From a virus (lineage: Duplodnaviria > Heunggongvirae > Uroviricota > Caudoviricetes), in the IMG/VR virus record IMGVR_UViG_3300045988_039442, positions 1-44,652 of that record: a stretch of DNA of 44,652 bases. One strand, given 5' to 3'. This document shows positions 1 to 44,652 of this stretch, in pieces (the first letter of the stretch is position 1; each line of letters opens with the position of its first letter). The position numbers and the translations under genes were made by a program. A model generated the notes under the pieces. It was not told where the DNA came from and searched no databases. It saw only the letters and a program-made list of their open reading frames with translations.

Positions 1-55
1 AGTGACGTCTATGTGGTGCGCGCGTTTTGGGGGTTGGTATGAAATATATATATAT
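1..55. repeat. Terminal direct repeat, left copy (identical to 44598-44652)
   Basis: Exact 55-bp identity between the two window ends; 55 is a common assembler k-mer, so this may be a circularisation overlap. Confidence 0.9.
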
Positions 56-903: not shown

Positions 904-935
904 TTGCACACTAAAATAGAATAGGCTACTATTCA
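904..935 (+). promoter_or_regulatory. Copy of the conserved promoter/operator element, rightward orientation
   Basis: TTGCACACTAAAATAGAATAGGCTACTATTCA closely resembles the 44040-44071 element; sits upstream of the gene at 964. Confidence 0.45.
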
Positions 936-9285: not shown

Positions 9286-9317
9286 CGAAAAAGGCCCCGT
9301 TATGGGGCCTTAGTTTT
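9286..9317. terminator. bidirectional hairpin terminator between convergent portal and DpdA-like genes
   Basis: AAGGCCCC-GTTAT-GGGGCCTT with flanking A and T tracts. Confidence 0.65.
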
Positions 9318-10034
9318 AAGTAGCCATTCCTCTACTGTAGGGGGTTTAACCATCTCTATGGTATGCCTCATTATGGCAGTTCGATGCAGTTTGTCCGTTA
9401 TGTCAGGTAGTCTTGCCTTAGTTTTCGGCACATTTATAGCTACGTTTGTGCTGTCAGCGCTGTCGAAAGGGTAGCGGCTCAAGGCCCGCCCATCCAGCAT
9501 TCTAAGGCCGTGGAGTTTTACATCCAATTTCCTGTTTCTATAAACCGCATTAAATGCCTGGTCCATTCTTTTCCCCCATGACTTAGACCGTATGGCCCTG
9601 TGCGGTCCGCAGCAACCTATCGCTACCCGATTGAACCCACGGCACAGTTTTACCAGTCTTCTTATACTTTCATCGCTGTGCCACACCGGGACCGCCTTAG
9701 ACCTTAACCAATCGGGGACAGTTTCTATTAATGCGTCGTTCTCTTCCTCCGTGCCCTCTATAACGTCCGGTATTATGAACCACTCAATACGACTGAACCA
9801 CTCTCCGACAAAATCATAATATCCTGCCCAGTGGGCGCTCCAGTCTATGTTGTCCGGTGCTTTCTTCCACGTCGAAAAAGCTCCGTTGTCCAACACTAAT
9901 TTACATCTCGTGGCGGCTATCTTTCGTATTTGATCGGGGCGGGCGTATGATACCAGAGCACCACCACCTCGGTACAATGCTTCTATAAGCTCATCCCCAC
10001 CCCAAATAGGGCCTCCGTGGTAATGCACTGTCAT
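9300..10034 (-). CDS. tRNA-guanine transglycosylase/DpdA-like protein (candidate 7-deazaguanine DNA base-exchange enzyme)
   Basis: LVLDNGAFS segment resembles the TGT catalytic-Asp region (LTDSGGFQ) and HGLRMLD a second Asp region; no CxCxxC zinc motif seen; assigned from memory of the fold, not by search. Confidence 0.4.
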   Translation of the reverse strand: MTVHYHGGPIWGGDELIEALYRGGGALVSYARPDQIRKIAATRCKLVLDNGAFSTWKKAPDNIDWSAHWAGYYDFVGEWFSRIEWFIIPDVIEGTEEENDALIETVPDWLRSKAVPVWHSDESIRRLVKLCRGFNRVAIGCCGPHRAIRSKSWGKRMDQAFNAVYRNRKLDVKLHGLRMLDGRALSRYPFDSADSTNVAINVPKTKARLPDITDKLHRTAIMRHTIEMVKPPTVEEWLLKTKAP

Positions 10035-10495
10035 TTAATTTTCCTCAGCAAGAACGACCATAAAGCTCCGCCAAAAACCTTAGCCACGAATTGGCCCAGT
10101 ACGACTAGCGGCATGAAGGCCCCGAAAGCTATTAGTGGGAAAATAAAAGAGTCCACCGCCGAGGCCGCTGTATTACTTACGTTTGACTTAACCAACCACT
10201 TTTTATTGATCAGTGCCTGGTAGACAACGGCATCTATGGCGGCTGCAAAAGCGAAGGCAACAACGCTTGCCATAGCAATCTTGCCGGTTGCCGGGTTTAT
10301 GGAGAAACTTATAATGCCAGTTACTAGTATCAGTATGAATATTTTTTGTACACCAATCCTCTCGTGCAACTTATCTCTTATTACGAAATCAAGCCCAATA
10401 AGTAGAAAGGCGTTTACCGGTGTCGCCCACGGACCAAACACAGTTACCGAAAAGTTAGCGGCGCATATCGCCGCTACGTAAATTGCATACATCAT
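10031..10495 (-). CDS. small polytopic membrane protein, possibly YhhQ/COG1738-type queuosine-precursor transporter
   Basis: Four to five TM helices; stop overlaps the start of the downstream DpdA-like gene (ATGA); SNVSNTAASAVDSFIFPLIAF resembles a DUF165 motif as I recall it. Confidence 0.35.
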   Translation of the reverse strand: MMYAIYVAAICAANFSVTVFGPWATPVNAFLLIGLDFVIRDKLHERIGVQKIFILILVTGIISFSINPATGKIAMASVVAFAFAAAIDAVVYQALINKKWLVKSNVSNTAASAVDSFIFPLIAFGAFMPLVVLGQFVAKVFGGALWSFLLRKIK

Positions 10496-10682: not shown

Positions 10683-10714
10683 TGAATAGTACCCTATTAT
10701 ATTGGTGTCTGCAA
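10683..10714 (-). promoter_or_regulatory. conserved promoter/operator element, copy 1, leftward
   Basis: TGAATAGTACCCTATTATATTGGTGTCTGCAA; minus strand reads TTGCAGAC ... TATAAT; contains the AATAG-N4-CTATT palindrome. Confidence 0.55.
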
Positions 10715-12263: not shown

Positions 12264-12290
12264 TAAAAGGCCCCGAAAGGGGCCTTAGCT
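12263..12290. terminator. bidirectional hairpin terminator
   Basis: AAGGCCCC-GAAA-GGGGCCTT. Confidence 0.6.
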
Positions 12291-12463
12291 TATACATCTC
12301 TACTCGCTAGATAATCGCAGCGGGCTATCGCTAAATATAAGCTAGCGTATGCGCTATCAGCTTTAGCATGGGTAAACCCAGAAATCATTACGTAGTACAC
12401 TCCTTTATCGTTTAGAACCCAGTATTTACCGTTTTCGTGCATTATGTCTTTTTCTTTGAACAT
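12290..12463 (-). CDS. hypothetical small protein (57 aa)
   Basis: ATG preceded by AGGAGA within the same conserved leader as at 10658; below the ORF-track cut-off. Confidence 0.4.
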   Translation of the reverse strand: MFKEKDIMHENGKYWVLNDKGVYYVMISGFTHAKADSAYASLYLAIARCDYLASRDV

Positions 12464-12487
12464 TTTTCATCTCCTGTTTAAGTTAAA

Positions 12488-12519
12488 TGAATAGTACCCT
12501 ATTATATTGGTGTCTGCAA
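12488..12519 (-). promoter_or_regulatory. conserved promoter/operator element, copy 2, leftward
   Basis: Identical over 32 bp to 10683-10714. Confidence 0.55.
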
Positions 12520-12585
12520 ACTATTTATTTACCTATTCCGGTTATTCCACCCAATTGTAAATGTTGGAATAAACTATTCGAATAG

Positions 12586-12729
12586 TTGACTTTTCACTAA
12601 AAATGTGCTAAGCTCCACCTGAGCTTGTGAAGTATGAACAAGCGACCGCGGTGCGGCAGGAGAACGGAGCGGTGCGTTAGCACTGAGTGTAGTGTCGCTG
12701 CCCGCATTCGGAAGGGCCATACTCTATTG
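12586..12729 (+). ncRNA. conserved structured non-coding element, paralogue A
   Basis: About 80% identical to 43731-43873; own TTGACT-N17-TAAGCT promoter; indels not in multiples of 3; hairpins with compensatory changes. Confidence 0.45.
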
Positions 12730-12792
12730 CTTGTGTAAAAAGTAGCTGGTTTACTGAGATTACGCCGTTTCTATGTTTAAATGATAAGGACT

Positions 12793-12820
12793 AGCGCCCC
12801 GCTTTAAGGCGGGGCTTTAC
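12793..12820 (+). terminator. rho-independent terminator
   Basis: GCCCCGC-TTTAAG-GCGGGGC followed by TTTACTT. Confidence 0.55.
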
Positions 12821-12839
12821 TTATCGAGAAAGGAGAAAC

Positions 12840-19566: not shown

Positions 19567-19596
19567 AACTAAGGCCCCTTTCGGGGCCTTTTCTTA
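19566..19596. terminator. bidirectional hairpin terminator
   Basis: AAGGCCCC-TTTC-GGGGCCTT followed by TTCTT. Confidence 0.65.
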
Positions 19597-19759
19597 CTCC
19601 TTCAATTGCATAGGGTAGAAGTTAACGAGTTCTCCTTTATCCCGAAGCCTTGAATACTCATCTAATGCCTCTTCCAGGCTACTTACGGCTTAGATATCAC
19701 TCCATTCGTCCCATTCTTTGTCGTATACGCTGATTACAAATATTGTCCCCATTGTACAT

Positions 19760-20329
19760 TCACGCATTTGGATAAATCCCCAGGATTCTATTAGCAATCG
19801 CAGCCGCTGTTAATGTAATCTCGCCTGGGATGACCACAACGTCATGGCATACCGCACCATCAATATCGTACAGGTAACCACGACTATCCCCGTCAAACGT
19901 ATAGCCGTCTCTGTGCAAGCGAACGATTCTTACATCATGCCCCGCGGCGACGATGGGGGCCACTTCACTGGCGAATCCACCGTCGGACACTACAAAAACT
20001 TCGTCGCCGTCGGACAAGTTTCCGGCAAGATACTTACCGAAATAATCGTCACCGAATACCGGTTTAATGAATTGCTCAGAAATGGCAATCATGAACTGAC
20101 GACGTGACAACCCATTAAGAAAACCCTCTGGCTTTTCTTTCCGCGCCCTGTCGTCGTAGCCGTCGAGAAACTCGTGGTAAGTATCCGGGCCTAACGCTGC
20201 AAGAGCGATATTGAACATTGGATTCTTGAAACTGGTAGTCGCATTCGCAAAGCCCATTTCTACCAGCGCCATAGCGAGTGTGTCTTTTCCGCAGCCCGCA
20301 GGACCATTAAGAATGATTACCTTAGCCAT
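19760..20329 (-). CDS. P-loop nucleotide kinase, dNMP-kinase-like (T4 gp1-like GKDT Walker A)
   Basis: N-terminal VIILNGPAGCGKDT; small (189 aa); last gene of the leftward operon. Confidence 0.5.
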   Translation of the reverse strand: MAKVIILNGPAGCGKDTLAMALVEMGFANATTSFKNPMFNIALAALGPDTYHEFLDGYDDRARKEKPEGFLNGLSRRQFMIAISEQFIKPVFGDDYFGKYLAGNLSDGDEVFVVSDGGFASEVAPIVAAGHDVRIVRLHRDGYTFDGDSRGYLYDIDGAVCHDVVVIPGEITLTAAAIANRILGIYPNA

Positions 20330-20814
20330 TATTTATTGCTCCCGTGTGGTTTTAAGTGAGTAGAGTTCCCGTTACAGTCGTATTCAGTAACCGCGTGCGT
20401 CGTGATTCCTAAGCCACGGAAATGCTTTATCACCGCTGGGGAGTCATCGAACGCACACAAGATTCTTTCCAGCCCGATAGCGCGCAACACCTCTTCTTTA
20501 ATTACGATGTCTTTTCTGTTGTCGTGTTTGCTGCGCATGATTAGCTGATAAAATTCGACGCGGTGGCGCTGCAACCACATTCTGGTTTCTTTTTCTGCGT
20601 CATCACTGCGACCGGTTAAAATAATAGCGGCGTATCGCCGATTAAGGGCGTTACACAGCTCGATATTATCTCTAATTGGTTCATCATCTTTGCACGCCAT
20701 GTTAAATGGCTTCCACGCCCATGTTTCGTTGTAGTTATCTTTCGGCAGAAGGTGCAAACGATGTGTCCCATCCGCCAATGTCCCGTCTAAATCGAAAATT
20801 ACAATATCTTTCAT
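20329..20814 (-). CDS. HAD-family phosphatase resembling the polynucleotide kinase 3'-phosphatase domain
   Basis: DLDGTL motif at the N-terminus; the RKDIVIKEEV ... FDDSPAVI segment resembles the T4 Pnk phosphatase domain from memory. Confidence 0.5.
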   Translation of the reverse strand: MKDIVIFDLDGTLADGTHRLHLLPKDNYNETWAWKPFNMACKDDEPIRDNIELCNALNRRYAAIILTGRSDDAEKETRMWLQRHRVEFYQLIMRSKHDNRKDIVIKEEVLRAIGLERILCAFDDSPAVIKHFRGLGITTHAVTEYDCNGNSTHLKPHGSNK

Positions 20815-21941
20815 CCCAACATCTCCGGTGAAATAGTTAAACGTGCAACCTCGCCGTATTCGGCGCTATAAGTAATTACATTTGCACTGCGTCCCGACAT
20901 CCACCCACCGCGAGAAGCATATGCATCTTTCGCCGCGAGAGTGCGATGCTGCTCAACAATCATGTTACGGCTTTCTACAATCTTCTGGTGGTGCAGGTGC
21001 CCAACGTGGGCGTAGCTATAAACGCTCTCGCCGAACGCTTTGCGGAACTTAGCAATCATAACCGGTTCGATAGCGTCAAATCGCGCCTTATGCCCGTGGT
21101 GAAAGAACAATGTCGTTTTGCCGTGTTGCACCATCTTGTAAACATCCGGCGATGTATCCACTGTCACTCGGCTGTCGTTTGAGTATAAAGTCGTGAACAT
21201 TTCCGCCAGCCATACAGACCCTACAGGGTCGTGATTTCCTTGCACGATAAGCAAGCGAACAGATTTATGCTTAACCAGTGCCATATCAACAACACGGCGA
21301 ACCATACGAATCATGTAGCGGACAAGTTTCTGGTAGCGAGTGTCTGCGTCCAACACATGACGCGACTCAGGGGTAACGGCATCAAGACTATCGAAGTGTG
21401 CGAAGTCCCCCAGCAGGTTAATAACCCCAGTTCCAGCATCTGGTGCTTTCTGAAACGCCGCATCGAACCAACGGGAGAACAAGTCTTCAGCAATCTTCAT
21501 ATCCCAGTCGTCGCCGCTCTCGTCGGCCCAGGCCAGCATACCGAGATGGAAATCAGATACAGTGTAAAGATTGAGTAGTTTATCGTCACGTTTGGTGCGA
21601 GCGGCTTTAACAGGTGCAACCGGCGTAATCTCCGACTTCATACCTTCGATTACGGCTTTCATTAATTCTACCTGACGTTCGGCATCGGTGTCGGTCTTAA
21701 CCCATTGCAACTTAGTATTGCCGAACTCGTCCACCAGAGACGACGTGCCTTTAATCTTGTAGCCGTCCGGAACAAGGTGGCTAACGTCCAGCCCGTGGCC
21801 TACGCCTTTCTTTGCCAGCTTCGCTTTACGGATTCTGATAACGCGGTCTGAGACGCCGTATTTACGAGCTATATCGATATTCCTCACACCGGCGTTCAAT
21901 TCTTCCTGTAACTGCTCGTCGGTTATTTTCTTCCGGGCCAT
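20811..21941 (-). CDS. calcineurin-like metallophosphoesterase with N-terminal HTH domain
   Basis: Motifs SDFHLG, GDFAHF, GNHD, HHGH and GHLHH; RBS ACGAGGAAG. Confidence 0.6.
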   Translation of the reverse strand: MARKKITDEQLQEELNAGVRNIDIARKYGVSDRVIRIRKAKLAKKGVGHGLDVSHLVPDGYKIKGTSSLVDEFGNTKLQWVKTDTDAERQVELMKAVIEGMKSEITPVAPVKAARTKRDDKLLNLYTVSDFHLGMLAWADESGDDWDMKIAEDLFSRWFDAAFQKAPDAGTGVINLLGDFAHFDSLDAVTPESRHVLDADTRYQKLVRYMIRMVRRVVDMALVKHKSVRLLIVQGNHDPVGSVWLAEMFTTLYSNDSRVTVDTSPDVYKMVQHGKTTLFFHHGHKARFDAIEPVMIAKFRKAFGESVYSYAHVGHLHHQKIVESRNMIVEQHRTLAAKDAYASRGGWMSGRSANVITYSAEYGEVARLTISPEMLG

Positions 21942-22006
21942 GCTTACTTCCTCGTGTTTAGGATTTGTCCTATTTAACCATAGTGCATTCCTTTAAATAA
22001 AGGCGA

Positions 22007-22333
22007 CTATTTACTTTCCGCGCCTATCGCCCACCCGGTCATTACCATTTGCAGACGGGTAGCCGTTAGTAGGCTGTAAAACGCGTCTCCGTTTTTCTCT
22101 ACCGAACGTATTACCGTGTATGTTACGGCTTGAGGAGGTAAGCCCGATTTACCAACCTCTACGGCAGCCTCACACTCGCCAACTGTAGAGTCCTTAAATG
22201 CCTTTACGATAGTAGTGTCGGCTTTCTCAAGCACGCCAGAAGTCATAAGAACAGATTCACTAAATACCTGTTCGCACGGGGACCCAAAAGTAGCAAAAGA
22301 CATAAACCCCAGAGCCAATACTAATTTACGCAT
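22007..22333 (-). CDS. small secreted/periplasmic protein with signal peptide
   Basis: N-terminal MRKLVLALGFMSFATFG signal-like segment; first gene after the conserved promoter. Confidence 0.5.
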   Translation of the reverse strand: MRKLVLALGFMSFATFGSPCEQVFSESVLMTSGVLEKADTTIVKAFKDSTVGECEAAVEVGKSGLPPQAVTYTVIRSVEKNGDAFYSLLTATRLQMVMTGWAIGAESK

Positions 22334-22358
22334 AATTATTTCCTCAGTAAGTTACAGG

Positions 22359-22390
22359 TGAATAGTACCCTATTATATTGGGGTGTGCAA
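22359..22390 (-). promoter_or_regulatory. conserved promoter/operator element, copy 3, leftward
   Basis: TGAATAGTACCCTATTATATTGGGGTGTGCAA; drives the four-gene leftward operon 22333 to 19760. Confidence 0.55.
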
Positions 22391-29528: not shown

Positions 29529-31367
29529 ATGTCAAGCGGATGCGGTGACGTTTTAAGCCTGGCGGATTTACAAACCGCCAAGAAACACCAGATTTTCGAA
29601 GCCGAGGTTATTACTGGTAAATCCGGAGGAGTCGCCGGCGGTGATAATATTGATTACGCGACCAACCAGGTTACAGGGCAGACACAGAAGACGCTCCCCG
29701 CCGTGTTGCGGGATGCATGTTTTTCTCCTGTATCTTGGGACTTTTCTACTGGCGGCACGCTAACCGTTAATGATCGGGACAAAGTGGTTTATGACCCGGT
29801 GGGCAAAACGTGGTACTCGTACGCGGGTACGTTGCCGGTTGTAGTCCCCGCAGCATTTAACCCGGTCGGTAACGCGGACTGGAAACCTCAGACAGACCAT
29901 GATTTACGCGAAGAATTATCCGAAATTGACGGAGAAAAATTAGTAGGAACTTGCCCCGATGTGGCTACACTGCGGACGATAGAACCAACCGTATCTAACC
30001 AAGTTATCACGGTACGAGGCTACTACTCTGACACGCCCGGGCTTGGGGGAGGAACGTTTATAGCCTTTTCCAGTTCTGAGGCAGATGACGGCGTGAATAT
30101 TTTTGTTACCCCCGGCGGTAAGCGCTGGAAGAGAACAGGAAGTCACATCGATATTCCGGTAGAGAACGGGGGCATGATGGCATCTCGTACACCGGAGCAA
30201 AACAGTGAAGCTCTTGAGCGTATTCATTCTTGCCTTCCACAGACTGGAGGTAAATTAAGATTTTCAGATTTTTATGATATTAAGTATGGAGCTATATGTC
30301 CGCCACGCGTCATGTGGGAGGGTATTGGTAGAGACTCATGCGGCTTACGTAAAACAGGTAACGATGTTAAAACCGTTCCAGACCGTATGTGGCAAGGCGC
30401 ACCCCATAGCTTCTCCCTGGATTTTATTGCTGCTATTGACATGGATAGTAGCGTGGCAGGCGACCTTACCGGAAACTTTAGCCGTTCCGGCTGTATTACT
30501 GGTATGAGTTTGATTGGTGCCGCTACTGCAAAAAATGCCTATGGTATTTATAGTGCAATAAGCTATATGGTTCGATTAGAAGACCTGTATATAGAAAACG
30601 TGATGACAGGGTACCGAACAAGTGATAGCTGGCTTCAGGTGTTTGATTCACTTATCATTAAAGATGTTCAAGATGGCATTTCTGTAGACACCGGCGGCAC
30701 AACTTTTAACTTAAATAACGTTTATGTCAGGAATGTATCCCGGTGGGCATATAAGTTTACTAACATTACTTATTCCAATCTTAAAGGTTGTGCAACGGAT
30801 TATGTAACTGGTTCCGCTTATGTGTTCTTAGGGTGCACTAGTGTAGTTATGGACGGCTGCGGGGCAGAAGAGATTCATGGTAGCCTCTTTGAGTGTAATC
30901 AATCTCGCTTATCTATTAATGCCTTTCGTAGTGTTAATCTCACAGATACGGGAAGTGTTGCCTGCATCTTTACTCAATGTGCAGTCACCATTACTGGTAG
31001 CTACCTGCCGGAGTTTGCTGGTTCACCTACTAGCAAATACTGGCAAGTTAATGACACTACCATTAACCTGATTAATACCGTTGCACCGGCAGCCTCCCGT
31101 GTGCTGTGGGCAGCAGGTGTTTCGCAGTTTAACTACTCAGACTGGGGAGGTAATTATACAATCTGGGGTACGTACACATGGACAGCTGCTGGTTACAAAA
31201 TTAACGGCATTGCGCATGTATACGGGGATGCTCCCCCTGATTCTTCAGTCACCCAATTCGGCAATGGTGCGCGATGGGAGCTTCTGACACCAGTTGCTGG
31301 GCGACCTTATAAATGGGTCCATGTTGGCTCTGGTGTGTGGAAGGTTGCTGGTAATGTAACTAGCTAA
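29529..31367 (+). CDS. tail fibre/tailspike with predicted right-handed beta-helix C-terminal domain
   Basis: 612 aa; the C-terminal part is rich in Gly/Ser/Thr/Asn/Tyr repeats typical of beta-helix receptor-binding or depolymerase domains; AT-richer from about 30.2 kb. Confidence 0.55.
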   Translation: MSSGCGDVLSLADLQTAKKHQIFEAEVITGKSGGVAGGDNIDYATNQVTGQTQKTLPAVLRDACFSPVSWDFSTGGTLTVNDRDKVVYDPVGKTWYSYAGTLPVVVPAAFNPVGNADWKPQTDHDLREELSEIDGEKLVGTCPDVATLRTIEPTVSNQVITVRGYYSDTPGLGGGTFIAFSSSEADDGVNIFVTPGGKRWKRTGSHIDIPVENGGMMASRTPEQNSEALERIHSCLPQTGGKLRFSDFYDIKYGAICPPRVMWEGIGRDSCGLRKTGNDVKTVPDRMWQGAPHSFSLDFIAAIDMDSSVAGDLTGNFSRSGCITGMSLIGAATAKNAYGIYSAISYMVRLEDLYIENVMTGYRTSDSWLQVFDSLIIKDVQDGISVDTGGTTFNLNNVYVRNVSRWAYKFTNITYSNLKGCATDYVTGSAYVFLGCTSVVMDGCGAEEIHGSLFECNQSRLSINAFRSVNLTDTGSVACIFTQCAVTITGSYLPEFAGSPTSKYWQVNDTTINLINTVAPAASRVLWAAGVSQFNYSDWGGNYTIWGTYTWTAAGYKINGIAHVYGDAPPDSSVTQFGNGARWELLTPVAGRPYKWVHVGSGVWKVAGNVTS

Positions 31368-31396
31368 AACTAAGGCCCCAAACGGGGCCTTTTCTC
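31368..31396. terminator. bidirectional hairpin terminator between the convergent structural and replication blocks
   Basis: AAGGCCCC-AAAC-GGGGCCTT followed by TTCT. Confidence 0.65.
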
Positions 31397-34307: not shown

Positions 34308-34604
34308 TTAGGGTATGTGTTTACTATAATAGTCCGCTATTAGGGTGTCAACCTGTTTAAACGAACCAACGACAAAAACATTCGCGCCGCGTTTACGCAT
34401 CCGCTCGTGCTCGCGTAGCTGGTGCGGGTCGGGCTTCGTGTTTTCGTCTTTCTTAACCTCGACGAACCAGATGATGCCGTCGGGGAGAATTACCAGCAGG
34501 TCGGGAGCACCGGAACGTCCTTCGTAGGAGAGCTTGCGAACGAGGCCCCCCAGGGCCTCGAACCTCTCTTTCGCGTATTTCTGCACGCGACCCTCTTTAG
34601 TCAT
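34308..34604 (-). CDS. VRR-NUC domain nuclease
   Basis: PDLLVILPDG ... WFVEVK is a PD-(D/E)XK core typical of VRR-NUC; ATG at 34604 within ORF 34308..34784. Confidence 0.6.
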   Translation of the reverse strand: MTKEGRVQKYAKERFEALGGLVRKLSYEGRSGAPDLLVILPDGIIWFVEVKKDENTKPDPHQLREHERMRKRGANVFVVGSFKQVDTLIADYYSKHIP

Positions 34605-34967: not shown

Positions 34968-37155
34968 AGCGTTTTAACTCCTGCCCTTCCGCTACAAGAG
35001 GGAAGCCTTCTGCCCACTCTGGCAACGCGCACATTAATTTCTCCAGTTCGGCCACCGTGTACTCAGGGGTATCTGGAGTTTCGCATACCAGTTCATCGTG
35101 TACCGAAAGCACGATAGGATATCCGCCACGCTCAACGTTAAGCATCGCATACGCCAGTAAATCACGGCACAGCGCCTGGACAATGTTTTCACATGCTTTA
35201 CCGCCGTGGGTGTATAAGGTAGTCCATTGGCGGGTTAACTGGTTTTCGCCCTGATACTTGATTCGCACATTCGTGTTTACCCGTCCGTCTTCGTCTGTTT
35301 CTTTTGTCACGCTAACGCCGATTCCAGGGTACGAAAGGATGCGGCCTGACGGCAACTCCATACACAACCACCAACCAGGAACCTTCCTACCGGATGAATC
35401 GGTTTCTACTGTTCTCCAGATTCGGATAGCGCGCTCGCCATTCTTGCGCAGATGCGCCCCCGCCCAAAATTCACGACCAGGATTTCTTACAGCGGCTAAA
35501 ATTCCGTCTTTAAGGTCGCGCCAGAACGCTACTGTTTCCGGGTGCGACTCGCGCCACATGCGCTTGATAGCGTCGCAGGTACGCCACACTTTCTTATCCA
35601 GAATATACGACGGTCGGTCGTCCTTTTCACCAGGATGCGGCGGTCGCTTTGCTTCCTGGATACGCGCCCACTCATAACCCCGTGCGGTAGCGGCCCATAT
35701 GTGGTCAGGGAATGTACCATCCATTGTTTTAGCCATCTCAATAAGGTCGAGGCCTAAGTTTTTAGCGAACGTAACGAACGCTCCGACGCCACCCTCATAG
35801 CCGAGGCCCAGTTCGCAGGCCTTACCTATCTGTCTGATTTCCTTGAAGTTTTTCTTAATATCGTCGGGATCCATGCCAAACATCTTACCCGCGGTTACGC
35901 AATAAATATCCAGTCCGGCGCGGAACGTATCAAGCGCGGTTTCTTCACCAGCCAGCCACGCAAGCCCACGACCCTCAACGTTAGAGTAATCGGCGACGAC
36001 AAATTTATGCCCAGCTTCCGGTATGATGCAGCTACGAACCGTCGATGCCGTTAGCTTGGCTACGTCGAAACGGCGATGAGCACGGCCCTTAAGTAGCGCA
36101 GAAATGCCTTTATCCAGTTCATCATCGTGATAGTACCCGCGCGCGAGGTTCTGCGGCTGGAAGCCTTTACCCGCCCATCGCAGAGTCCGTTTTGCCCCGC
36201 CGTACTGTAAACAACCACGACGGCGGTCGTCAGACGAGCGGCCTAACAGCAGCGGGTTATATTTCGTTGATGCCGTGGACGCGGCACCGAGGCGCATTTC
36301 GATAATCGTGCGGGCGTCGTCCGGTAAATCATCATCCGCCAGCAGGTCATTCAGCGTCGACTTCTGCGCATTGTGGATGCGGTGCGCGGGTGCGAGTTCA
36401 CGCAGAATCGGCAGAAAGTCCTTACCAGTAAGCGAGCCGCCGTATTTTAGTTGGGCTTCTTCCTGTAACTGTGCCTTGTGCTTCTCCACGGCTTCAATCG
36501 CGGCTTCTGCCAGCGCTACGTCAACCTTAAACCCACGGTCGTTGATTAATTGGTCAAGTTCAAGTACACGGTCCTCAAACTCCGAGTTACCCCAACGCGG
36601 CAGCTTATGAAAGACTTCACGCATCGCAGTAATGTCGCTCACGGCGTACTTGATGAATAACGCCCACTCGTCTGGGTGCGTTTCTGCGGTGTAGCGGCGA
36701 ATTTTGTAGTTCTTCGGTGTCGGTTTAGAAAAACGCTGAATCAGCGCTTTACCTCGTTTGTCTTTCGCATTGTCGGCGGACACGCCAAGCACTTCACACA
36801 GCGCATCAAGTGACCCCGGCAACGCGTGACGAAACGCCCGAATCATAGTGTCGATGGTATTTCTTGGTTTGATATCCACCCCCCAACAGTGCTTCATAAC
36901 TAGTCTGTCGAACATTAAAAAGTTATGGCCTACGATTCTCATACGTCCGCGCATAACATTACGGAGCGCAACGCGGAGGTTTATCGGCATTACTGGTTCG
37001 GAAGTGCAGTCCCATACTTCTACAGGCCCGTCATCAATGGCGTATGTGCATATTATAATCTCAGTTGTTGCGTGTTCCGCGTACGCGTATGACCCTACTT
37101 TCTTTAGGTCAGCTTCAGAGAATGTTTCAGTATCCAGATACAATAAATTAGGCAT
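34957..37155 (-). CDS. DNA polymerase I-like (family A) with 3'-5' exonuclease domain
   Basis: Exo motif LDTETF; polymerase motif A DYSNVEGR, motif B RQIGKACELGLGYEGG, motif C VHDELV. Confidence 0.9.
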   Translation of the reverse strand: MPNLLYLDTETFSEADLKKVGSYAYAEHATTEIIICTYAIDDGPVEVWDCTSEPVMPINLRVALRNVMRGRMRIVGHNFLMFDRLVMKHCWGVDIKPRNTIDTMIRAFRHALPGSLDALCEVLGVSADNAKDKRGKALIQRFSKPTPKNYKIRRYTAETHPDEWALFIKYAVSDITAMREVFHKLPRWGNSEFEDRVLELDQLINDRGFKVDVALAEAAIEAVEKHKAQLQEEAQLKYGGSLTGKDFLPILRELAPAHRIHNAQKSTLNDLLADDDLPDDARTIIEMRLGAASTASTKYNPLLLGRSSDDRRRGCLQYGGAKRTLRWAGKGFQPQNLARGYYHDDELDKGISALLKGRAHRRFDVAKLTASTVRSCIIPEAGHKFVVADYSNVEGRGLAWLAGEETALDTFRAGLDIYCVTAGKMFGMDPDDIKKNFKEIRQIGKACELGLGYEGGVGAFVTFAKNLGLDLIEMAKTMDGTFPDHIWAATARGYEWARIQEAKRPPHPGEKDDRPSYILDKKVWRTCDAIKRMWRESHPETVAFWRDLKDGILAAVRNPGREFWAGAHLRKNGERAIRIWRTVETDSSGRKVPGWWLCMELPSGRILSYPGIGVSVTKETDEDGRVNTNVRIKYQGENQLTRQWTTLYTHGGKACENIVQALCRDLLAYAMLNVERGGYPIVLSVHDELVCETPDTPEYTVAELEKLMCALPEWAEGFPLVAEGQELKRYAK

Positions 37156-37173
37156 ATTATTTTCGACCCTTAG

Positions 37174-37197
37174 TAAAAAGGCCCAATGAAGGGCCTT
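37174..37197 (-). terminator. rho-independent terminator downstream of the SSB-like gene
   Basis: AGGCCC-AATGAA-GGGCCT followed by T5 on the minus strand. Confidence 0.6.
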
Positions 37198-37216
37198 AGT
37201 TAAATTGATTCAGATA

Positions 37217-37843
37217 TTAGCGGCGGCGACGTTCGCGGCGCGGTGCTCCATCTTCTTCGTCGTCTTCCAGGTCATCGACACTCGCAGCGACTTTAGAACC
37301 ACCGAACGCTTTACCTTCTCCGACGTATTTAATTGCCAGCAGGTTAACACCGAGAACTTTGTATTTCTGGCTGAACCAGATTTCAACGCTTACGTTAGCG
37401 ACGCAGCCGCTGTAAACCTGTTCACCTTCAATCTGTTCGCCGTCTACATTGAAATCCTGCTCTACCTGAGTCTCGCCTTTTTTAGAGGTTACAATCAGAG
37501 GCTGTTTCTGTGCTTTCGCTTTGAAGTAGAAGCCTTCCGGGAAGTCTTCAAACGGATTGTCACGCTCGGCAATGTCCTTAATCGCACATTTATCCATGTG
37601 CTTACCTTCGCCGTAGTTGGACTTCATCCACTTATCGGCGGCGGCTGCACCTAACGCTTCTTCAACTACGGCGTAAACAGTGTCATAGAGTGCATCGATT
37701 TGAGCATGGTCAGACGGCAGGATGATAGTTGCGCTGTACTGCCCCTTAGTGATTGAACCATCATCGTTTTCACGGTCTTTTTCGCGTTCGAATACGTTAA
37801 CCCATGCAGTGTTTACTTTACGCAGATTCAGTTTAATACCCAT
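37217..37843 (-). CDS. ssDNA-binding protein-like (DUF2815/gp2.5-like) with acidic C-terminal tail
   Basis: C-terminal DDLEDDEEDG acidic tail; position in the replication block. Confidence 0.5.
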   Translation of the reverse strand: MGIKLNLRKVNTAWVNVFEREKDRENDDGSITKGQYSATIILPSDHAQIDALYDTVYAVVEEALGAAAADKWMKSNYGEGKHMDKCAIKDIAERDNPFEDFPEGFYFKAKAQKQPLIVTSKKGETQVEQDFNVDGEQIEGEQVYSGCVANVSVEIWFSQKYKVLGVNLLAIKYVGEGKAFGGSKVAASVDDLEDDEEDGAPRRERRRR

Positions 37844-37889
37844 CTTGATTTCTCGCTTTTAAGTTTACTCCGGGAACTGCCCGGCCAGT

Positions 37890-37915
37890 GATTAGAAATA
37901 TAATAGCTAACTATT
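37890..37915 (+). promoter_or_regulatory. degenerate copy of the promoter/operator element (AATAG-N4-CTATT with TATAAT)
   Basis: AAATATAATAGCTAACTATTCAGG; nearly identical to the site at 40491-40516; orientation and function unclear. Confidence 0.35.
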
Positions 37916-37921
37916 CAGGTG

Positions 37922-38080
37922 TCAACGCTTAATTTTAGAAACTTTCTCACACCAATGAACATAGCGTTCTATGGGTTGACTACCTCTAAACTTACAATCT
38001 ATCCAAGCAATAGATGAAGTAAAAGCAGATATAACTACCAATGGTGATAATAAAGCCCAATACACGATTTTACGAATCAT
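37922..38080 (-). CDS. small membrane protein (52 aa)
   Basis: ATG at 38080 overlapping the exonuclease stop, within ORF 37922..38110. Confidence 0.4.
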   Translation of the reverse strand: MIRKIVYWALLSPLVVISAFTSSIAWIDCKFRGSQPIERYVHWCEKVSKIKR

Positions 38081-39318
38081 TCTAAATCCTCCTCGGTTGC
38101 CTGATTCCACTCAGGACGTTTGTCGTCTGCCGTTGCGACGCACGGTGCTCCGGGCTTACGGGTAATGAAGTCTTTCAGTTCTTCTTCCGGCACAACTTTA
38201 ACCGCTTCGGTCGGCGTCATGAGAACTACCTTTTGCAGCATAGTACCGTACTTCTCGAATACCGCATCGGTATCTTTCCACGCACGGTTACCAGGACGAC
38301 CTTCAACCAACTTGTACCCTGGCACTTTCTTACCGGAATGTAACGCAGCTGCCATCGCTTTCTCAACCTTATCGATGTGCTGGCGCAACAACGGCAACTT
38401 CTCATATTCGGCTACAAGTTGCTCCGGTGTCAGTTCCAGCGCAAAGTCGTCCTCCAGTTCTTCCGCCAGTACAGAATTAACCGTCTTTGTACGCGCGGCG
38501 CATTGTTCAGAGAACCGGCACCACTGGCAACCATCGACCGACGGCCTGAAGTCCGACGCTTTCAGGTTCTTCTTGCCGCGGAAATACGCGTCTAGCGCTA
38601 AAAGTGCACGTTTCTGTGCGAACTTAGCGAACAGTTCCAGACCTTCAACCGAGATGTCCCACTCCGACGCACCGCCAGCATACGGCTGGAAGATGACCAG
38701 ACGAACCACGGTGATGTTATAGCGTCTCTTGAGTCGGCGATAGACACCGAGAGCGTAAAGCATAAGCTGTTTGTTTTCTTTCGCTTCAACACGATGCCGT
38801 CCTGTTTTCAGGTCGCCGATAATGAGCATGTGCTCGTCTGTGTTCGCCAGTTCCTGCACGGCAACGAGGTCAGCGGTTCCGAACGTCTCAACGCCTTCAT
38901 AGCCAGGATGCAATACCTCAGTAAGATTGACGCGCATCTCAAGTTTGGCGTAAGTCGCTACGTCGATAATCGGTTTGCAATAGTCGGTGTACTTGCGCAC
39001 CTGCTCAATCATGTCAGCCGTAATCAGTACAGCGCCCTTCATCGGGCTGATTAACGCCTTAATCTGACCTTTACCCTCATCCAGCACGTAAGCGCCGACT
39101 TCACGCTCTAACGGCAGCGCCGTGCCTTTGATGTACTGGTTAAGGTGCATCTCGGCTATGGTGTGCATGGCGGTGCCTAATACGGCTGCTTTACCGGACG
39201 TGTTAGGAATATCTTTTTCACAGGCTAGCGATGCACTGCACGTCAGCCACTTTTTAGCACCCGACGGTGACAGTAAGGCGTGCACATCATTATTGCCGCC
39301 GCGTTCCTTTAAAATCAT
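38077..39318 (-). CDS. PD-(D/E)XK nuclease (Cas4/RecB-like recombination exonuclease, DUF2800-like) with C-terminal Cys cluster
   Basis: About 413 aa; ATG at 39318 after GGGAGAA; C-terminal CQWCRFSEQC cysteines. Confidence 0.6.
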   Translation of the reverse strand: MILKERGGNNDVHALLSPSGAKKWLTCSASLACEKDIPNTSGKAAVLGTAMHTIAEMHLNQYIKGTALPLEREVGAYVLDEGKGQIKALISPMKGAVLITADMIEQVRKYTDYCKPIIDVATYAKLEMRVNLTEVLHPGYEGVETFGTADLVAVQELANTDEHMLIIGDLKTGRHRVEAKENKQLMLYALGVYRRLKRRYNITVVRLVIFQPYAGGASEWDISVEGLELFAKFAQKRALLALDAYFRGKKNLKASDFRPSVDGCQWCRFSEQCAARTKTVNSVLAEELEDDFALELTPEQLVAEYEKLPLLRQHIDKVEKAMAAALHSGKKVPGYKLVEGRPGNRAWKDTDAVFEKYGTMLQKVVLMTPTEAVKVVPEEELKDFITRKPGAPCVATADDKRPEWNQATEEDLE

Positions 39319-40490: not shown

Positions 40491-40562
40491 GCTAACTATA
40501 ATAGCTAACTATTCACGATGTCAATGGGCTTTTCTAAAATAATTAATATGGTACTATTCACA
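40491..40562 (+). promoter_or_regulatory. promoter/operator region of the XRE regulator: two AATAG-like palindromic sites plus TATAAT
   Basis: TATAAT at 40497-40502 within CTAACTATAATAGCTAACTATTCACG; second site AATATGGTACTATTCAC at 40545-40561 sits between promoter and RBS. Confidence 0.45.
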
Positions 40563-44039: not shown

Positions 44040-44071
44040 TTGCACACCCCAATATAATAGGATACTATTCA
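44040..44071 (+). promoter_or_regulatory. conserved promoter/operator element, rightward copy driving the early block
   Basis: TTGCACACCCCAATATAATAGGATACTATTCA is the reverse complement of the 22359-22390 element; about 30 bp upstream of the RBS at 44091. Confidence 0.55.
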
Positions 44072-44597: not shown

Positions 44598-44652
44598 AGT
44601 GACGTCTATGTGGTGCGCGCGTTTTGGGGGTTGGTATGAAATATATATATAT
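44598..44652. repeat. Terminal direct repeat, right copy (identical to 1-55)
   Basis: Exact match to the window start; the window ends inside the repeat. Confidence 0.9.

What the first reader, a model, noticed from the sequence alone, without database searches (positions are those of the whole stretch)
19760..22390. Leftward operon encoding dNMP-kinase-like P-loop kinase, Pnk-like HAD phosphatase and HTH-fused metallophosphoesterase
This four-gene operon splits the tail module and is driven by another copy of the conserved early promoter. The kinase has the GKDT Walker A typical of T4 gp1-type dNMP kinases. The HAD protein (DLDGTL) resembles the 3'-phosphatase domain of polynucleotide kinase. 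The third protein has all five calcineurin-like phosphoesterase motifs plus an N-terminal HTH. Kinase plus phosphatases can mean nucleic-acid end healing (countering anticodon nucleases), nucleotide-pool remodelling for modified DNA, or cyclic-nucleotide signal degradation. No ligase is adjacent, so this is not a classical Pnk/Rnl pair.
Basis: partly seen in the sequence, partly recalled or inferred. Interest (0 to 1): 0.7.

Follow-up and report, generated by a model that had tools for sequence, protein, structure and literature searches.

The report
Phage nuclease–phosphatase–dNMP kinase cassette
This is a widespread, already-annotated three-enzyme phage cassette (probable DNA nuclease, small phosphatase, deoxynucleotide kinase) that most likely recycles DNA breakdown products into building blocks for phage DNA, not an RNA/DNA end-repair system.

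Summary
Four co-directional minus-strand genes lie at 19760-22333, between the tail-tube and tail-chaperone genes of a complete Kagunavirus genome. A recurrent promoter precedes them and a bidirectional terminator follows. The last three genes are translationally coupled.

- **Kinase:** a dNMP kinase. It shares phrog_139 with T4 gp1, its best fold match by TM-score is 1DEK, and it is 49% identical over its full length to Rao1 DNK, which phosphorylates dAMP, dGMP, dCMP and dTMP in vitro.
- **HAD protein:** a standalone PNKP-type phosphatase. It falls in phrog_415 with T5 Dmp, a 5'-dNMP phosphatase. T4 Pnk's own family is phrog_505.
- **Third protein:** a sigma-70-region-4-like helix-turn-helix fused to a metallophosphoesterase. 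All five motifs are invariant, and Mre11 and PolD-DP1 nucleases are the nearest folds.

The same three-gene cassette occurs in Drexlerviridae (Rao1 gp56-58, Klebsiella phage VAC2). One paper has already noted it there with a "nucleotide supply" hypothesis.

Deoxynucleotide salvage and pool management is the best-supported function. It parallels T5's A1, Dmp and DNK. End healing is disfavoured: the kinase is not Pnk-type, close relatives annotate no ligase, and the window holds no tRNA genes.

The cassette is a new member of a known kind. The roles of the HAD protein and the metallophosphoesterase remain untested.

The parts
22362..22390 (-). Sigma-70-type promoter TTGCAC (22390-22385), 17-nt spacer, TACTAT (22367-22362). 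The spacer holds the palindrome AATAG-N4-CTATT (22361-22374).
   Evidence: Repeat family D1. The pattern is found 8 times against 0.02-0.06 expected. Alignment of the 8 sites is. Activity is inferred, not shown.
22007..22333 (-). First gene, 108 aa, with a Sec-signal-like N-terminus. It belongs to phrog_14165 (function unknown). This is a variable slot: most Kagunavirus carry an Imm-like 'superinfection immunity' gene here.
   Evidence: No Pfam, NCBIfam or PADLOC hit.
20811..21941 (-). 376-aa HTH-fused metallophosphoesterase and probable DNA nuclease. Layout: HTH at residues 8-44, beta-hairpin 61-85, helix 87-102, MPE domain about 119-376. Motifs: SDFHLG (129-134), LGDFAHFD (177-184), GNHD (235-238), FHHGHK (280-285), GHLHH (314-318).
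   Evidence: phrog_704 at 9e-163. Conservation across 48 homologues. AF2 mean pLDDT 91.6. Foldseek top hits are Mre11 4o43 at 1e-8, PolD DP1 and Rv0805. 44% identical to Rao1 gp56 and 40% to the VAC2 phosphoesterase.
20329..20814 (-). 161-aa standalone PNKP/Dmp-type HAD phosphatase. Motifs: D8xD10GT, H18-R19, T67-G-R69, D98-N-R-K-D102...K106-E107, D123-D124.
   Evidence: Pfam HAD_PNKP scores 67.5 bits against a cut-off of 27.6. phrog_415 at 1e-64. The A3 profile hits only Pnkp1 and T4 Pnk in the PDB. T5 Dmp is in phrog_415. 57% identical to the VAC2 homologue and 50% to Rao1 gp57.
19760..20329 (-). 189-aa deoxynucleoside monophosphate kinase (DNK). The P-loop is GPAGCGKDT with Lys15.
   Evidence: phrog_139 at 7.5e-47, the same family and profile span as T4 gp1. 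AF2 mean pLDDT 92.7. The highest TM-score in the PDB is to 1dek, at 0.62-0.63. 49% identical over residues 1-182 to Rao1 R1DNK and 49% to VAC2 DNK.
19690..19767 (-). Remnant (25 aa) of a small downstream ORF that is 58 aa in EcoPhCCP1. A TAT-to-TAA change truncates it here.
19571..19590 (.). Bidirectional intrinsic terminator hairpin (AAGGCCCC-loop-GGGGCCTT). It ends both the leftward cassette and the rightward tail-tube gene.
   Evidence: It is conserved in K1H and EcoPhCCP1, and a 90% copy lies at 31365-31395.

Best explanation
This is an early-type cassette for deoxynucleotide salvage and pool management, transcribed from a host sigma-70 promoter. It is made up of three translationally coupled enzymes.

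- **HTH-fused metallophosphoesterase.** It most likely acts on DNA as a nuclease and releases nucleotides or processes DNA ends. This step is inferred.
- **HAD phosphatase.** It removes a terminal or monoester phosphate. The substrate could be 3'-phosphate ends or 3'-dNMPs, as with the Pnk phosphatase domain, or surplus or aberrant 5'-dNMPs, as with T5 Dmp. The substrate is unresolved.
- **Kinase (DNK).** It converts dNMPs to dNDPs, which host Ndk then turns into dNTPs for the phage polymerase. This activity is shown for the 49%-identical Rao1 orthologue and inferred here.

The phage lacks its own ribonucleotide reductase. The cassette would therefore raise dNTP supply from DNA breakdown products. 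T5 shows the same logic with A1 (metallophosphatase, host DNA degradation), Dmp (HAD, dNMP phosphatase) and DNK.
For: **Kinase**
- It falls in the same PHROG, over the same profile span, as T4 gp1.
- T4 dNMP kinase 1dek gives the highest TM-score among PDB hits.
- It is 49% identical over its full length to R1DNK. Zeng et al. (bioRxiv 10.1101/2024.12.20.629578) show that R1DNK phosphorylates dAMP, dGMP, dCMP and dTMP, needs Lys15, and that its deletion lowers dATP during infection.

**HAD**
- It scores above the Pfam HAD_PNKP cut-off.
- Its best PHROG is phrog_415, which also holds T5 Dmp at 3.6e-57.
- hhalign against T5 Dmp gives 85% probability over motifs I-II.
- Homologues sit next to nrdB in T4-like phages.

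**MPE**
- The metal-binding motifs are invariant.
- Motif II is GDFxH, as in the P. putida nuclease MPE (alignment).
- Mre11 and PolD-DP1 exonucleases are the top fold matches.
- A DNA-binding-type HTH is fused to it.

**Linkage**
- The junctions are ATGA and TAATG overlaps.
- The same MPE-HAD-DNK order occurs in Rao1, VAC2 and VAC5 in a different genomic context.
- Of 80 viral loci holding a kinase homologue, 62 have the HAD upstream on the same strand and 24 have all three genes contiguous.

**T5 parallel**
- A1 is a predicted metallophosphatase that is necessary and sufficient for host DNA digestion, and Dmp is a dNMP phosphatase (bioRxiv 10.64898/2026.04.02.716235).

**Genome content**
- The close relative EcoPhCCP1 annotates no RNR, thymidylate synthase or ligase.
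Against: - No activity of the MPE or HAD in this cassette has been measured anywhere I could find.
- The MPE is not specifically related to T5 A1; hhalign gives 30% probability over the motif III segment only.
- Its fold matches also include non-nuclease MPEs such as Rv0805, LpxH and GpdQ.
- A 5'-dNMP phosphatase co-translated with a dNMP kinase would form a futile cycle, unless their specificities differ.
- The MPE is much more widespread than the HAD-DNK pair. In the phage collection, 373 Salmonella phage records hold the MPE against 43 that hold the kinase. It may therefore have an independent role.
- Deleting dnk in Rao1 had no fitness cost in the laboratory.
- Host DNA degradation by Kagunavirus has not been documented here.
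Confidence: 0.5

Rival explanations
1. A split nucleic-acid end-healing system. The HAD removes 3'-phosphates, the MPE opens 2',3'-cyclic phosphates (as in bacterial Pnkp), and the kinase phosphorylates 5'-OH ends. A host ligase then reseals tRNA or DNA cut by a defence nuclease.
For: The only solved relatives of the HAD are Pnkp1 (4xrp, 1.1e-15) and the T4 Pnk phosphatase (3.3e-10). It also matches Pfam HAD_PNKP. From my own knowledge, Clostridium thermocellum Pnkp uses an MPE domain for end healing. In Pectobacterium phage PP99 a kinase homologue lies next to a DNA ligase and a PNK (H39).
Against: - The kinase is a DNK orthologue with demonstrated dNMP substrates.
- It does not hit phrog_505 or phrog_2071, where the T4 Pnk kinase domain falls.
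- Its AAA_33 match is far below the cut-off.
- 1ltq is absent from the top 50 fold hits.
- The HAD's own PHROG is the standalone Dmp-containing phrog_415, not phrog_505.
- No ligase is annotated in the close relative.
- The window has no tRNA genes.
Confidence: 0.12
2. A counter-defence cassette against immunity that senses or depletes nucleotides. The HAD destroys alarm mononucleotides or their precursors (dAMP or dIMP for Kongming, m6dAMP for Metis/PUA-Cal-HAD). The MPE cleaves signalling nucleotides. The kinase refills depleted dNTP pools.
For: T5 Dmp, in the same PHROG as this HAD, is a proven anti-Kongming factor that acts by removing dAMP. Zeng et al. report that Dmp homologues co-occur with DNKs. 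Bacterial Metis pairs a calcineurin-like enzyme with a HAD that hydrolyses m6dAMP. Rv0805, a cyclic-nucleotide phosphodiesterase, is among the top MPE fold hits.
Against: - Rao1 carries the orthologous MPE-HAD-DNK cassette yet is sensitive to Kongming, and escapes only by losing DNK.
- There are no PADLOC matches.
- The HAD is closer over motifs II-IV to Pnk phosphatases than to T5 Dmp: 37 against 18 bits.
- The MPE carries a DNA-binding-type HTH, and its best fold hits are nucleases.
Confidence: 0.15
3. The three genes are neighbours but not one pathway. The HTH-MPE has its own role, for example as a recombination or replication nuclease or a transcription-linked factor. HAD-DNK is a separate accessory nucleotide-metabolism pair that is merely co-transcribed.
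For: The MPE family has 4618 clusters at 50% identity and occurs in 2040 phage records, including 373 Salmonella phages. Only 43 Salmonella records have the kinase. Of 80 kinase loci, 38 have HAD plus kinase with no MPE within 6 kb, and 17 have the kinase alone. In K1H the MPE is annotated as similar to SETP3, but the HAD and kinase are not.
Against: The MPE stop and HAD start overlap (ATGA). The same order recurs in two phage families in different genome neighbourhoods.
Confidence: 0.18
4. The cassette supplies precursors for a modified DNA base.
For: From my own knowledge, T4 gp1 phosphorylates hmdCMP, and dNMP kinases often accompany hypermodification pathways.
Against: The close relative annotates no hydroxymethylase, glycosyltransferase, deazaguanine or thymidine-hypermodification genes, only a DNA methyltransferase. 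R1DNK acts on the four canonical dNMPs.
Confidence: 0.03

Closest known systems
Escherichia phage Rao1 gp56-gp57-gp58 and Klebsiella phage vB_KpnS-VAC2 phosphoesterase / 'polynucleotide kinase' / DNK (Drexlerviridae)
   Same: The three genes are orthologous and in the same order and orientation. Identity to Rao1 is 44/50/49%, and to VAC2 40/57/49%. The PHROGs are the same: 704, 415 and 139. R1DNK is a characterised dNMP kinase, and the VAC2 DNK also triggers Kongming.
   Different: There the cassette sits between replication or methylase genes and the lysis genes, not inside the tail module. It has no 108-aa first gene, and the promoter/operator element found here is absent from Rao1.
Phage T5 A1 + Dmp + DNK
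   Same: The enzyme classes are the same three: a metallophosphatase needed for host DNA degradation, a HAD dNMP phosphatase (phrog_415) and a dNMP kinase. Relatives of A1 also carry N-terminal HTH domains.
   Different: In T5 the genes are dispersed and separated in time (pre-early versus early). A1 (556 aa, phrog_1745) is not specifically related to this MPE. Dmp is 244 aa and aligns confidently only over motifs I-II.
T4 polynucleotide kinase/phosphatase (PseT) and bacterial Pnkp1
   Same: The HAD shares the DxDGT nucleophile motif, the Arg at +11, the T/S-G-R motif and the D-x-R-K-D-x-V-x-K-E-E motif. These are its only solved relatives.
   Different: No Pnk-type kinase domain is fused or adjacent, since the neighbouring kinase is gp1/DNK-type. 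T4 Pnk's own family is phrog_505. No Rnl-type ligase partner is present.
T4 gp1 deoxynucleoside monophosphate kinase (PDB 1DEK)
   Same: GKDT P-loop, same PHROG (139), and the best TM-score.
   Different: Identity is only 18-19%. The hhalign match covers only the N-terminal 75 columns, at 72% probability. T4 gp1 is annotated as not acting on dAMP or dCMP, whereas the closer homologue R1DNK does act on them.
Mre11/SbcD and Pseudomonas putida nuclease MPE
   Same: Calcineurin-like fold, the five motifs, and a GD(F/L)xH motif II.
   Different: No Rad50/SbcC partner is annotated in the relative. Sequence similarity is insignificant (E 0.45-0.9). The N-terminal HTH plus hairpin module and the C-terminal TLAAxDAYAxRGG motif are unique to this family.

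Membership tests
Phage dNMP kinase (DNK; T4 gp1 / T5 DNK / Rao1 R1DNK; phrog_139) | P-loop ending GKDT with the catalytic Lys | tested here: met
   GPAGCGKDT at residues 9-17, with Lys15. It is invariant in 42 homologues. K15A inactivates R1DNK.
Phage dNMP kinase (DNK; T4 gp1 / T5 DNK / Rao1 R1DNK; phrog_139) | Significant profile match to the family that contains T4 gp1 | tested here: met
   phrog_139 at 7.5e-47 over profile positions 82-259. T4 gp1 scores 1.8e-65 over positions 83-261.
Phage dNMP kinase (DNK; T4 gp1 / T5 DNK / Rao1 R1DNK; phrog_139) | Full-length homology to a biochemically characterised member | tested here: met
   49% identity and 66% positives over residues 1-182 to R1DNK, E 8e-62.
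Phage dNMP kinase (DNK; T4 gp1 / T5 DNK / Rao1 R1DNK; phrog_139) | Fold closest to T4 dNMP kinase | tested here: met
   1dek gives TMq 0.62-0.63, the highest among PDB hits. E-values are similar to those of archaeal adenylate-kinase-like proteins.
Phage dNMP kinase (DNK; T4 gp1 / T5 DNK / Rao1 R1DNK; phrog_139) | ATP-dependent phosphorylation of dNMPs | not testable with these tools
   Needs an enzyme assay.
T4 Pnk-type polynucleotide 5'-kinase | Match to Pnk kinase-domain families (phrog_505, phrog_2071, Pfam AAA_33) or to the 1LTQ fold | tested here: not met
   No hit to phrog_505 or phrog_2071, whereas T4 Pnk hits both. AAA_33 scores 13.9 bits against a cut-off of 27. 1ltq is not among the top 50 fold hits.
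PNKP-type HAD phosphatase (Pfam PF25109) | Score above Pfam's gathering threshold, plus the DxDGT nucleophile motif | tested here: met
   67.5 bits against 27.6. D8-L-D10-G-T is invariant.
PNKP-type HAD phosphatase (Pfam PF25109) | Fusion to, or pairing with, a polynucleotide kinase domain | tested here: not met
   It is a standalone 161-aa protein, and the neighbouring kinase is DNK-type.
PNKP-type HAD phosphatase (Pfam PF25109) | 3'-phosphatase activity on polynucleotides | not testable with these tools
   Needs an assay on 3'-phosphorylated oligonucleotides and 3'-dNMPs.
T5 Dmp-type 5'-dNMP phosphatase | Same protein family as T5 Dmp | tested here: inconclusive
   Both have phrog_415 as their best PHROG (1e-64 and 3.6e-57). 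Direct comparison is confident only over motifs I-II: hhalign 85%, HMM 18 bits against 37 bits for T4 Pnk.
T5 Dmp-type 5'-dNMP phosphatase | Protects a DNK-encoding phage from Kongming | not tested
   There is only indirect evidence against. Rao1 carries the 50%-identical gp57 and is Kongming-sensitive.
Calcineurin-like metallophosphoesterase superfamily | Five metal-binding and catalytic motifs: DxH, GD, GNHD/E, H, GHxH | tested here: met
   D130, H132, G178, D179, N236, H237, H282, G314 and H317 are invariant. D238 and H315 are conserved at 90% or more.
Calcineurin-like metallophosphoesterase superfamily | Pfam Metallophos or Metallophos_2 above the gathering threshold | tested here: not met
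   22.5 bits against 27, and 17.3 against 21.5. The family is too divergent for the Pfam models.
Calcineurin-like metallophosphoesterase superfamily | MPE fold | tested here: met
   The AF2 model has mean pLDDT 91.6. There are 142 PDB hits at E<=1e-3, and the 50 best listed are all MPE-fold proteins.
Mre11/SbcD nuclease | Partner Rad50/SbcC ATPase, and significant sequence match | tested here: not met
   No such gene is annotated in the relative's genome. The SbcD match has E 0.9.
T5 A1 host-DNA-degradation protein family (phrog_1745) | Profile-profile homology beyond the generic MPE motifs | tested here: not met
   hhalign of A2 against A4 gives 30% probability over 22 columns around (G/S)NHD.
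Bacterial Pnkp (kinase-MPE-ligase) / Pnkp-Hen1 repair system | Adenylyltransferase/ligase module and a Hen1 partner | tested here: not met
   Neither is in the cassette nor annotated in the relative's genome.

The most novel reading that the evidence does not exclude
The cassette is a self-contained 'degrade, sanitise, rephosphorylate' pathway. The HTH-MPE digests DNA. The HAD selectively dephosphorylates alarm or aberrant mononucleotides released by that digestion, such as m6dAMP, dIMP/dUMP or 3'-dNMPs. The DNK recycles the canonical dNMPs. The phage could then harvest host DNA without tripping mononucleotide-sensing immunity such as Metis/PUA-Cal-HAD. This would be a compact, co-translated counterpart of T5's A1/Dmp/DNK.
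Probability: 0.12. Interest if true: 0.6.

Novelty: new member of a known kind. Interest (0 to 1): 0.27.

Why it matters
The kinase of this cassette family is now known to be a double-edged gene. It boosts dATP supply, but it is also the trigger that Kongming defence hijacks to make dITP.

The two partner enzymes travel with it in many Drexlerviridae and Kagunavirus genomes and have never been assayed. Finding out what they do would have three consequences:
- It would correct the widespread database labels "polynucleotide kinase" and "DNA repair exonuclease".
- It would show whether small siphophages recycle host DNA as T4 and T5 do.
- It would show whether they have a built-in answer to immunity that senses nucleotides.

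For this particular window nothing departs from the family pattern.

Tried and rejected
- **Single-sequence and profile searches of the PDB.** For the kinase and the MPE these gave only P-loop or HTH noise, so fold comparison was needed.
- **Locus search with the MPE alignment.** The search for related loci failed because the alignment had no conserved stretch to search with.
- **Specific homology between this MPE and T5 A1.** I built an A1 family profile (A4) to test this. hhalign gave only 30% probability around motif III, so the link is rejected as homology and kept only as an analogy.
- **The HTH as binder of the promoter palindrome.** I asked whether the MPE's HTH might bind the AATAG-N4-CTATT palindrome in the phage's promoters. 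The palindrome is absent from Rao1, which has an orthologous MPE. There is no support, and the idea is left as speculation.
- **Relation to defence systems.** A PADLOC scan found nothing.
- **BFVD fold search.** It returned only uncharacterised family members and proteins labelled 'DNA polymerase II small subunit'. T5 A1 was not among the top 50.
- **NCBIfam.** No informative hits.
- **Literature.** No paper assays the HAD or the MPE of this cassette.

Full report
**Context**

The window is a complete Kagunavirus (Guernseyvirinae) genome. Its first 55 bases repeat exactly at its end. It is about 89-91% identical to K1H, K1G, EF2-1 and similar coliphages. Structural genes run rightward and replication genes run leftward from about 31.7 to 43.1 kb. 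The finding lies in a leftward island inside the tail module.

**Observation**

Four minus-strand ORFs are present: 22333-22007 (108 aa), 21941-20811 (376 aa), 20814-20329 (161 aa) and 20329-19760 (189 aa). Annotated relatives place the same genes between the tail-tube-type gene and the tail assembly chaperone and tape-measure genes. The last three genes are translationally coupled through ATGA and TAATG overlaps.

Upstream lies TTGCAC-17-TACTAT at 22390-22362. This element is one of five near-identical copies. Eight sites in the genome share the palindrome AATAG-N4-CTATT, against 0.02-0.06 expected by chance. Three of these lie inside the replication cluster, where they read as TTGACA-17-TATA(T/G)T on the coding strand. 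The statement that the operon uses "another copy of the conserved early promoter" therefore holds at sequence level, but expression timing is not shown.

A conserved bidirectional hairpin terminator closes the operon at 19571-19590. A fifth small ORF, 58 aa in EcoPhCCP1, is cut to 25 aa here by a TAT-to-TAA change.

**Kinase**

Pfam and NCBIfam see only the P-loop. PHROGs place the protein in phrog_139 at 7.5e-47. T4 gp1 hits the same family over the same profile positions.

An alignment of 42 homologues of 34-85% identity shows these conserved motifs: LNGPxGxGKDT, R61xxKE, R77, SE, SDGGF, RLHR and GDSRxY. The AF2 model has mean pLDDT 92.7. Its highest TM-score in the PDB is to T4 dNMP kinase 1dek, at 0.62-0.63, and T4 Pnk is not in the top 50.

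The decisive link is to Rao1. The protein is 49% identical over residues 1-182 to Rao1 gp58, called R1DNK. It is also 49% identical to the VAC2 homologue. Zeng et al. (bioRxiv 10.1101/2024.12.20.629578) report the following for R1DNK and its relatives:
- It phosphorylates dAMP, dGMP, dCMP and dTMP, and dIMP weakly.
- The K15A mutant is inactive.
- Deleting dnk lowers dATP during infection.
- The DNKs of Rao1, T5, VAC2 and others trigger the Kongming defence by supplying the kinase step towards dITP.

The kinase is therefore a dNMP kinase with high confidence, not a polynucleotide kinase.

**HAD protein**

It passes Pfam's HAD_PNKP threshold, at 67.5 bits against 27.6. A profile of 23 homologues finds only Pnkp1 (1.1e-15) and T4 Pnk (3.3e-10) among solved structures.

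However, its best PHROG is phrog_415 (1e-64). That is also the only PHROG hit by T5 Dmp, the experimentally characterised 5'-dNMP phosphatase (3.6e-57). T4 Pnk belongs to phrog_505 and hits phrog_415 only secondarily.

Direct comparison puts T5 Dmp at 85% hhalign probability over motifs I-II. By HMM score the cassette HAD is nearer to T4 Pnk over motifs II-IV, at 37 against 18 bits. By eye, all three share the Asp nucleophile, the Arg at +11, the (T/S)-x-R motif, the K-D-x-V-x-K motif and the DD motif. Substrate choice between 3'-phosphate and 5'-dNMP cannot be read from sequence.

Homologues lie next to nrdB in some T4-like phages, which is a nucleotide-metabolism context.

**Metallophosphoesterase**

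Pfam scores are below threshold. The family is nevertheless large: phrog_704 at 9e-163, 4618 clusters at 50% identity, and 2040 phage records. All metal-binding motifs are invariant across 48 diverse members.

The AF2 model has mean pLDDT 91.6. It shows a three-helix N-terminal HTH, a beta-hairpin, a long helix, and the MPE domain from about residue 119. The HTH resembles sigma-70 region 4 and LuxR/GerE.

Foldseek ranks Mre11 (1e-8) and the PolD DP1 proofreading exonuclease first. Non-nuclease MPEs such as Rv0805, LpxH and GpdQ follow closely. Motif II reads GDFxH, as in the P. putida nuclease MPE. A DNA nuclease is the most likely activity, but this is inference.

**The cassette as a unit**

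Rao1 gp56-57-58 and the VAC2 and VAC5 genes form the same MPE-HAD-DNK cassette. Identity to Rao1 is 44/50/49% and to VAC2 40/57/49%. There it sits next to the lysis genes rather than in the tail module.

Among 80 IMG/VR loci with a kinase homologue, 24 have all three genes contiguous, 38 have the HAD upstream of the kinase, and 17 have the kinase alone.

The MPE is commoner than its partners. It occurs in 373 Salmonella phage records, while the kinase occurs in 43. The likely picture is a core MPE with an accessory HAD-DNK pair.

The only paper that mentions the trio (PMC13164509) noted the exonuclease, PNK, dNMP kinase order in Drexlerviridae. It guessed that these genes extend the replication module and enhance nucleotide supply.

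**Mechanism**

Phage T5 offers the closest functional parallel:
- A1 is a predicted metallophosphatase that is necessary and sufficient for host chromosome digestion.
- Dmp is a dNMP phosphatase.
- T5 also has a DNK.

These points come from bioRxiv 10.64898/2026.04.02.716235 and Zeng et al.. A1 relatives also carry N-terminal HTH domains. A1 is not, however, specifically homologous to this MPE.

The close relative EcoPhCCP1 annotates no RNR, no thymidylate synthase, no ligase, and no base-modification genes other than a methyltransferase. The window has no tRNA genes.

The best-supported reading is therefore deoxynucleotide salvage and pool management. DNA is broken down by the MPE (inferred). 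Phosphates are trimmed by the HAD (substrate unresolved). dNMPs are pushed to dNDPs by the DNK (shown in the orthologue). I put this at about 0.5.

**Rivals**

- *End healing (about 0.12).* It would need a Pnk-type kinase and a ligase, and neither is present.
- *Counter-defence against nucleotide-based immunity (about 0.15).* This is attractive because T5 Dmp is anti-Kongming and bacterial Metis pairs a calcineurin-like enzyme with a HAD. Against it, Rao1 carries the orthologous cassette and is still Kongming-sensitive, and PADLOC finds nothing.
- *Independent roles for the MPE and the HAD-DNK pair (about 0.18).* This fits their unequal distributions.
- *Precursor supply for modified DNA (about 0.03).* This lacks any partner genes.

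**Verdict**

The preferred functional reading shifts from end repair or signal degradation to nucleotide salvage.

The cassette is common, annotated in GenBank (often misleadingly as "polynucleotide kinase" and "DNA repair exonuclease"), noted in the literature, and its kinase family is biochemically characterised. This window adds a new member about 90% identical to known ones.

What remains open, and is cheaply testable, is what the HAD and the HTH-MPE actually do.

Noticed in passing
window 1-55 and 44598-44652: An exact 55-nt direct repeat sits at the two ends of the window. The window is therefore a complete phage genome, either with an assembly overlap or with terminal redundancy.
   Followed up: partly
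window 917-933(+), 10685-10701(-), 12490-12506(-), 22361-22377(-), 34325-34341, 37899-37915, 40497-40513, 44053-44069(+): Eight promoter-like sites share the palindrome AATAG-N4-CTATT in the spacer, against 0.02 expected. Five are of type TTGCA(C/G)-17-TACTAT. Three, in the replication cluster, read TTGACA-17-TATA(T/G)T on the minus strand. This looks like a common operator for an unidentified regulator. It is absent from Rao1.
   Followed up: partly
window 9300-10495 (-) with promoter copy at 10685-10701: A second leftward two-gene island (244 aa and 154 aa) interrupts the rightward head and packaging genes. It is preceded by the same promoter. In EcoPhCCP1 the only gene annotated on that strand in the corresponding region is called an amidase, but I did not map it onto these two ORFs.
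   Followed up: no
window 12264-12839, promoter copy at 12490-12506 (-): A 97%-identical copy of the leftward promoter sits in an intergenic gap with no sizeable leftward ORF downstream. It might drive a small gene or an RNA.
   Followed up: no
window 19690-19767 (-): The small ORF after the kinase gene is 58 aa in EcoPhCCP1. Here a TAT-to-TAA change truncates it to 25 aa.
   Followed up: yes
window 22007-22333 (-): The first gene of the operon encodes a 108-aa protein with a Sec-signal-like N-terminus (phrog_14165, function unknown). Most Kagunavirus carry an Imm-like 'superinfection immunity' gene in this position, so this is a variable moron slot.
   Followed up: partly
L091 (Rao1, PQ221054) 36693-39056: Rao1 is the model phage of the Kongming study. 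It carries the whole MPE-HAD-DNK cassette (gp56-58), and only gp58 was studied. gp57 is annotated 'polynucleotide kinase' although it is a phosphatase-only HAD.
   Followed up: yes
hit H39, Pectobacterium phage PP99 NC_047802 about 20121-20687: In this T7-like phage a kinase homologue is annotated next to a DNA ligase and a PNK. In that lineage an end-repair context cannot be dismissed.
   Followed up: no
hits H155 and H156 (T4-like phages vB_EcoM_011D4 and phiS): A standalone HAD homologue, 42% identical, lies beside the aerobic NDP reductase small-subunit gene. This is a nucleotide-metabolism neighbourhood.
   Followed up: no
proteins P0463, P0465-P0467, P0469, P0493, P0505 (relatives of T5 A1): A1-family proteins of about 530 aa and 45-49% identity to T5 A1 carry Pfam HTH domains (HTH_23, HTH_38, HTH_7). 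The HTH-plus-metallophosphatase architecture has therefore arisen in this family too.
   Followed up: partly
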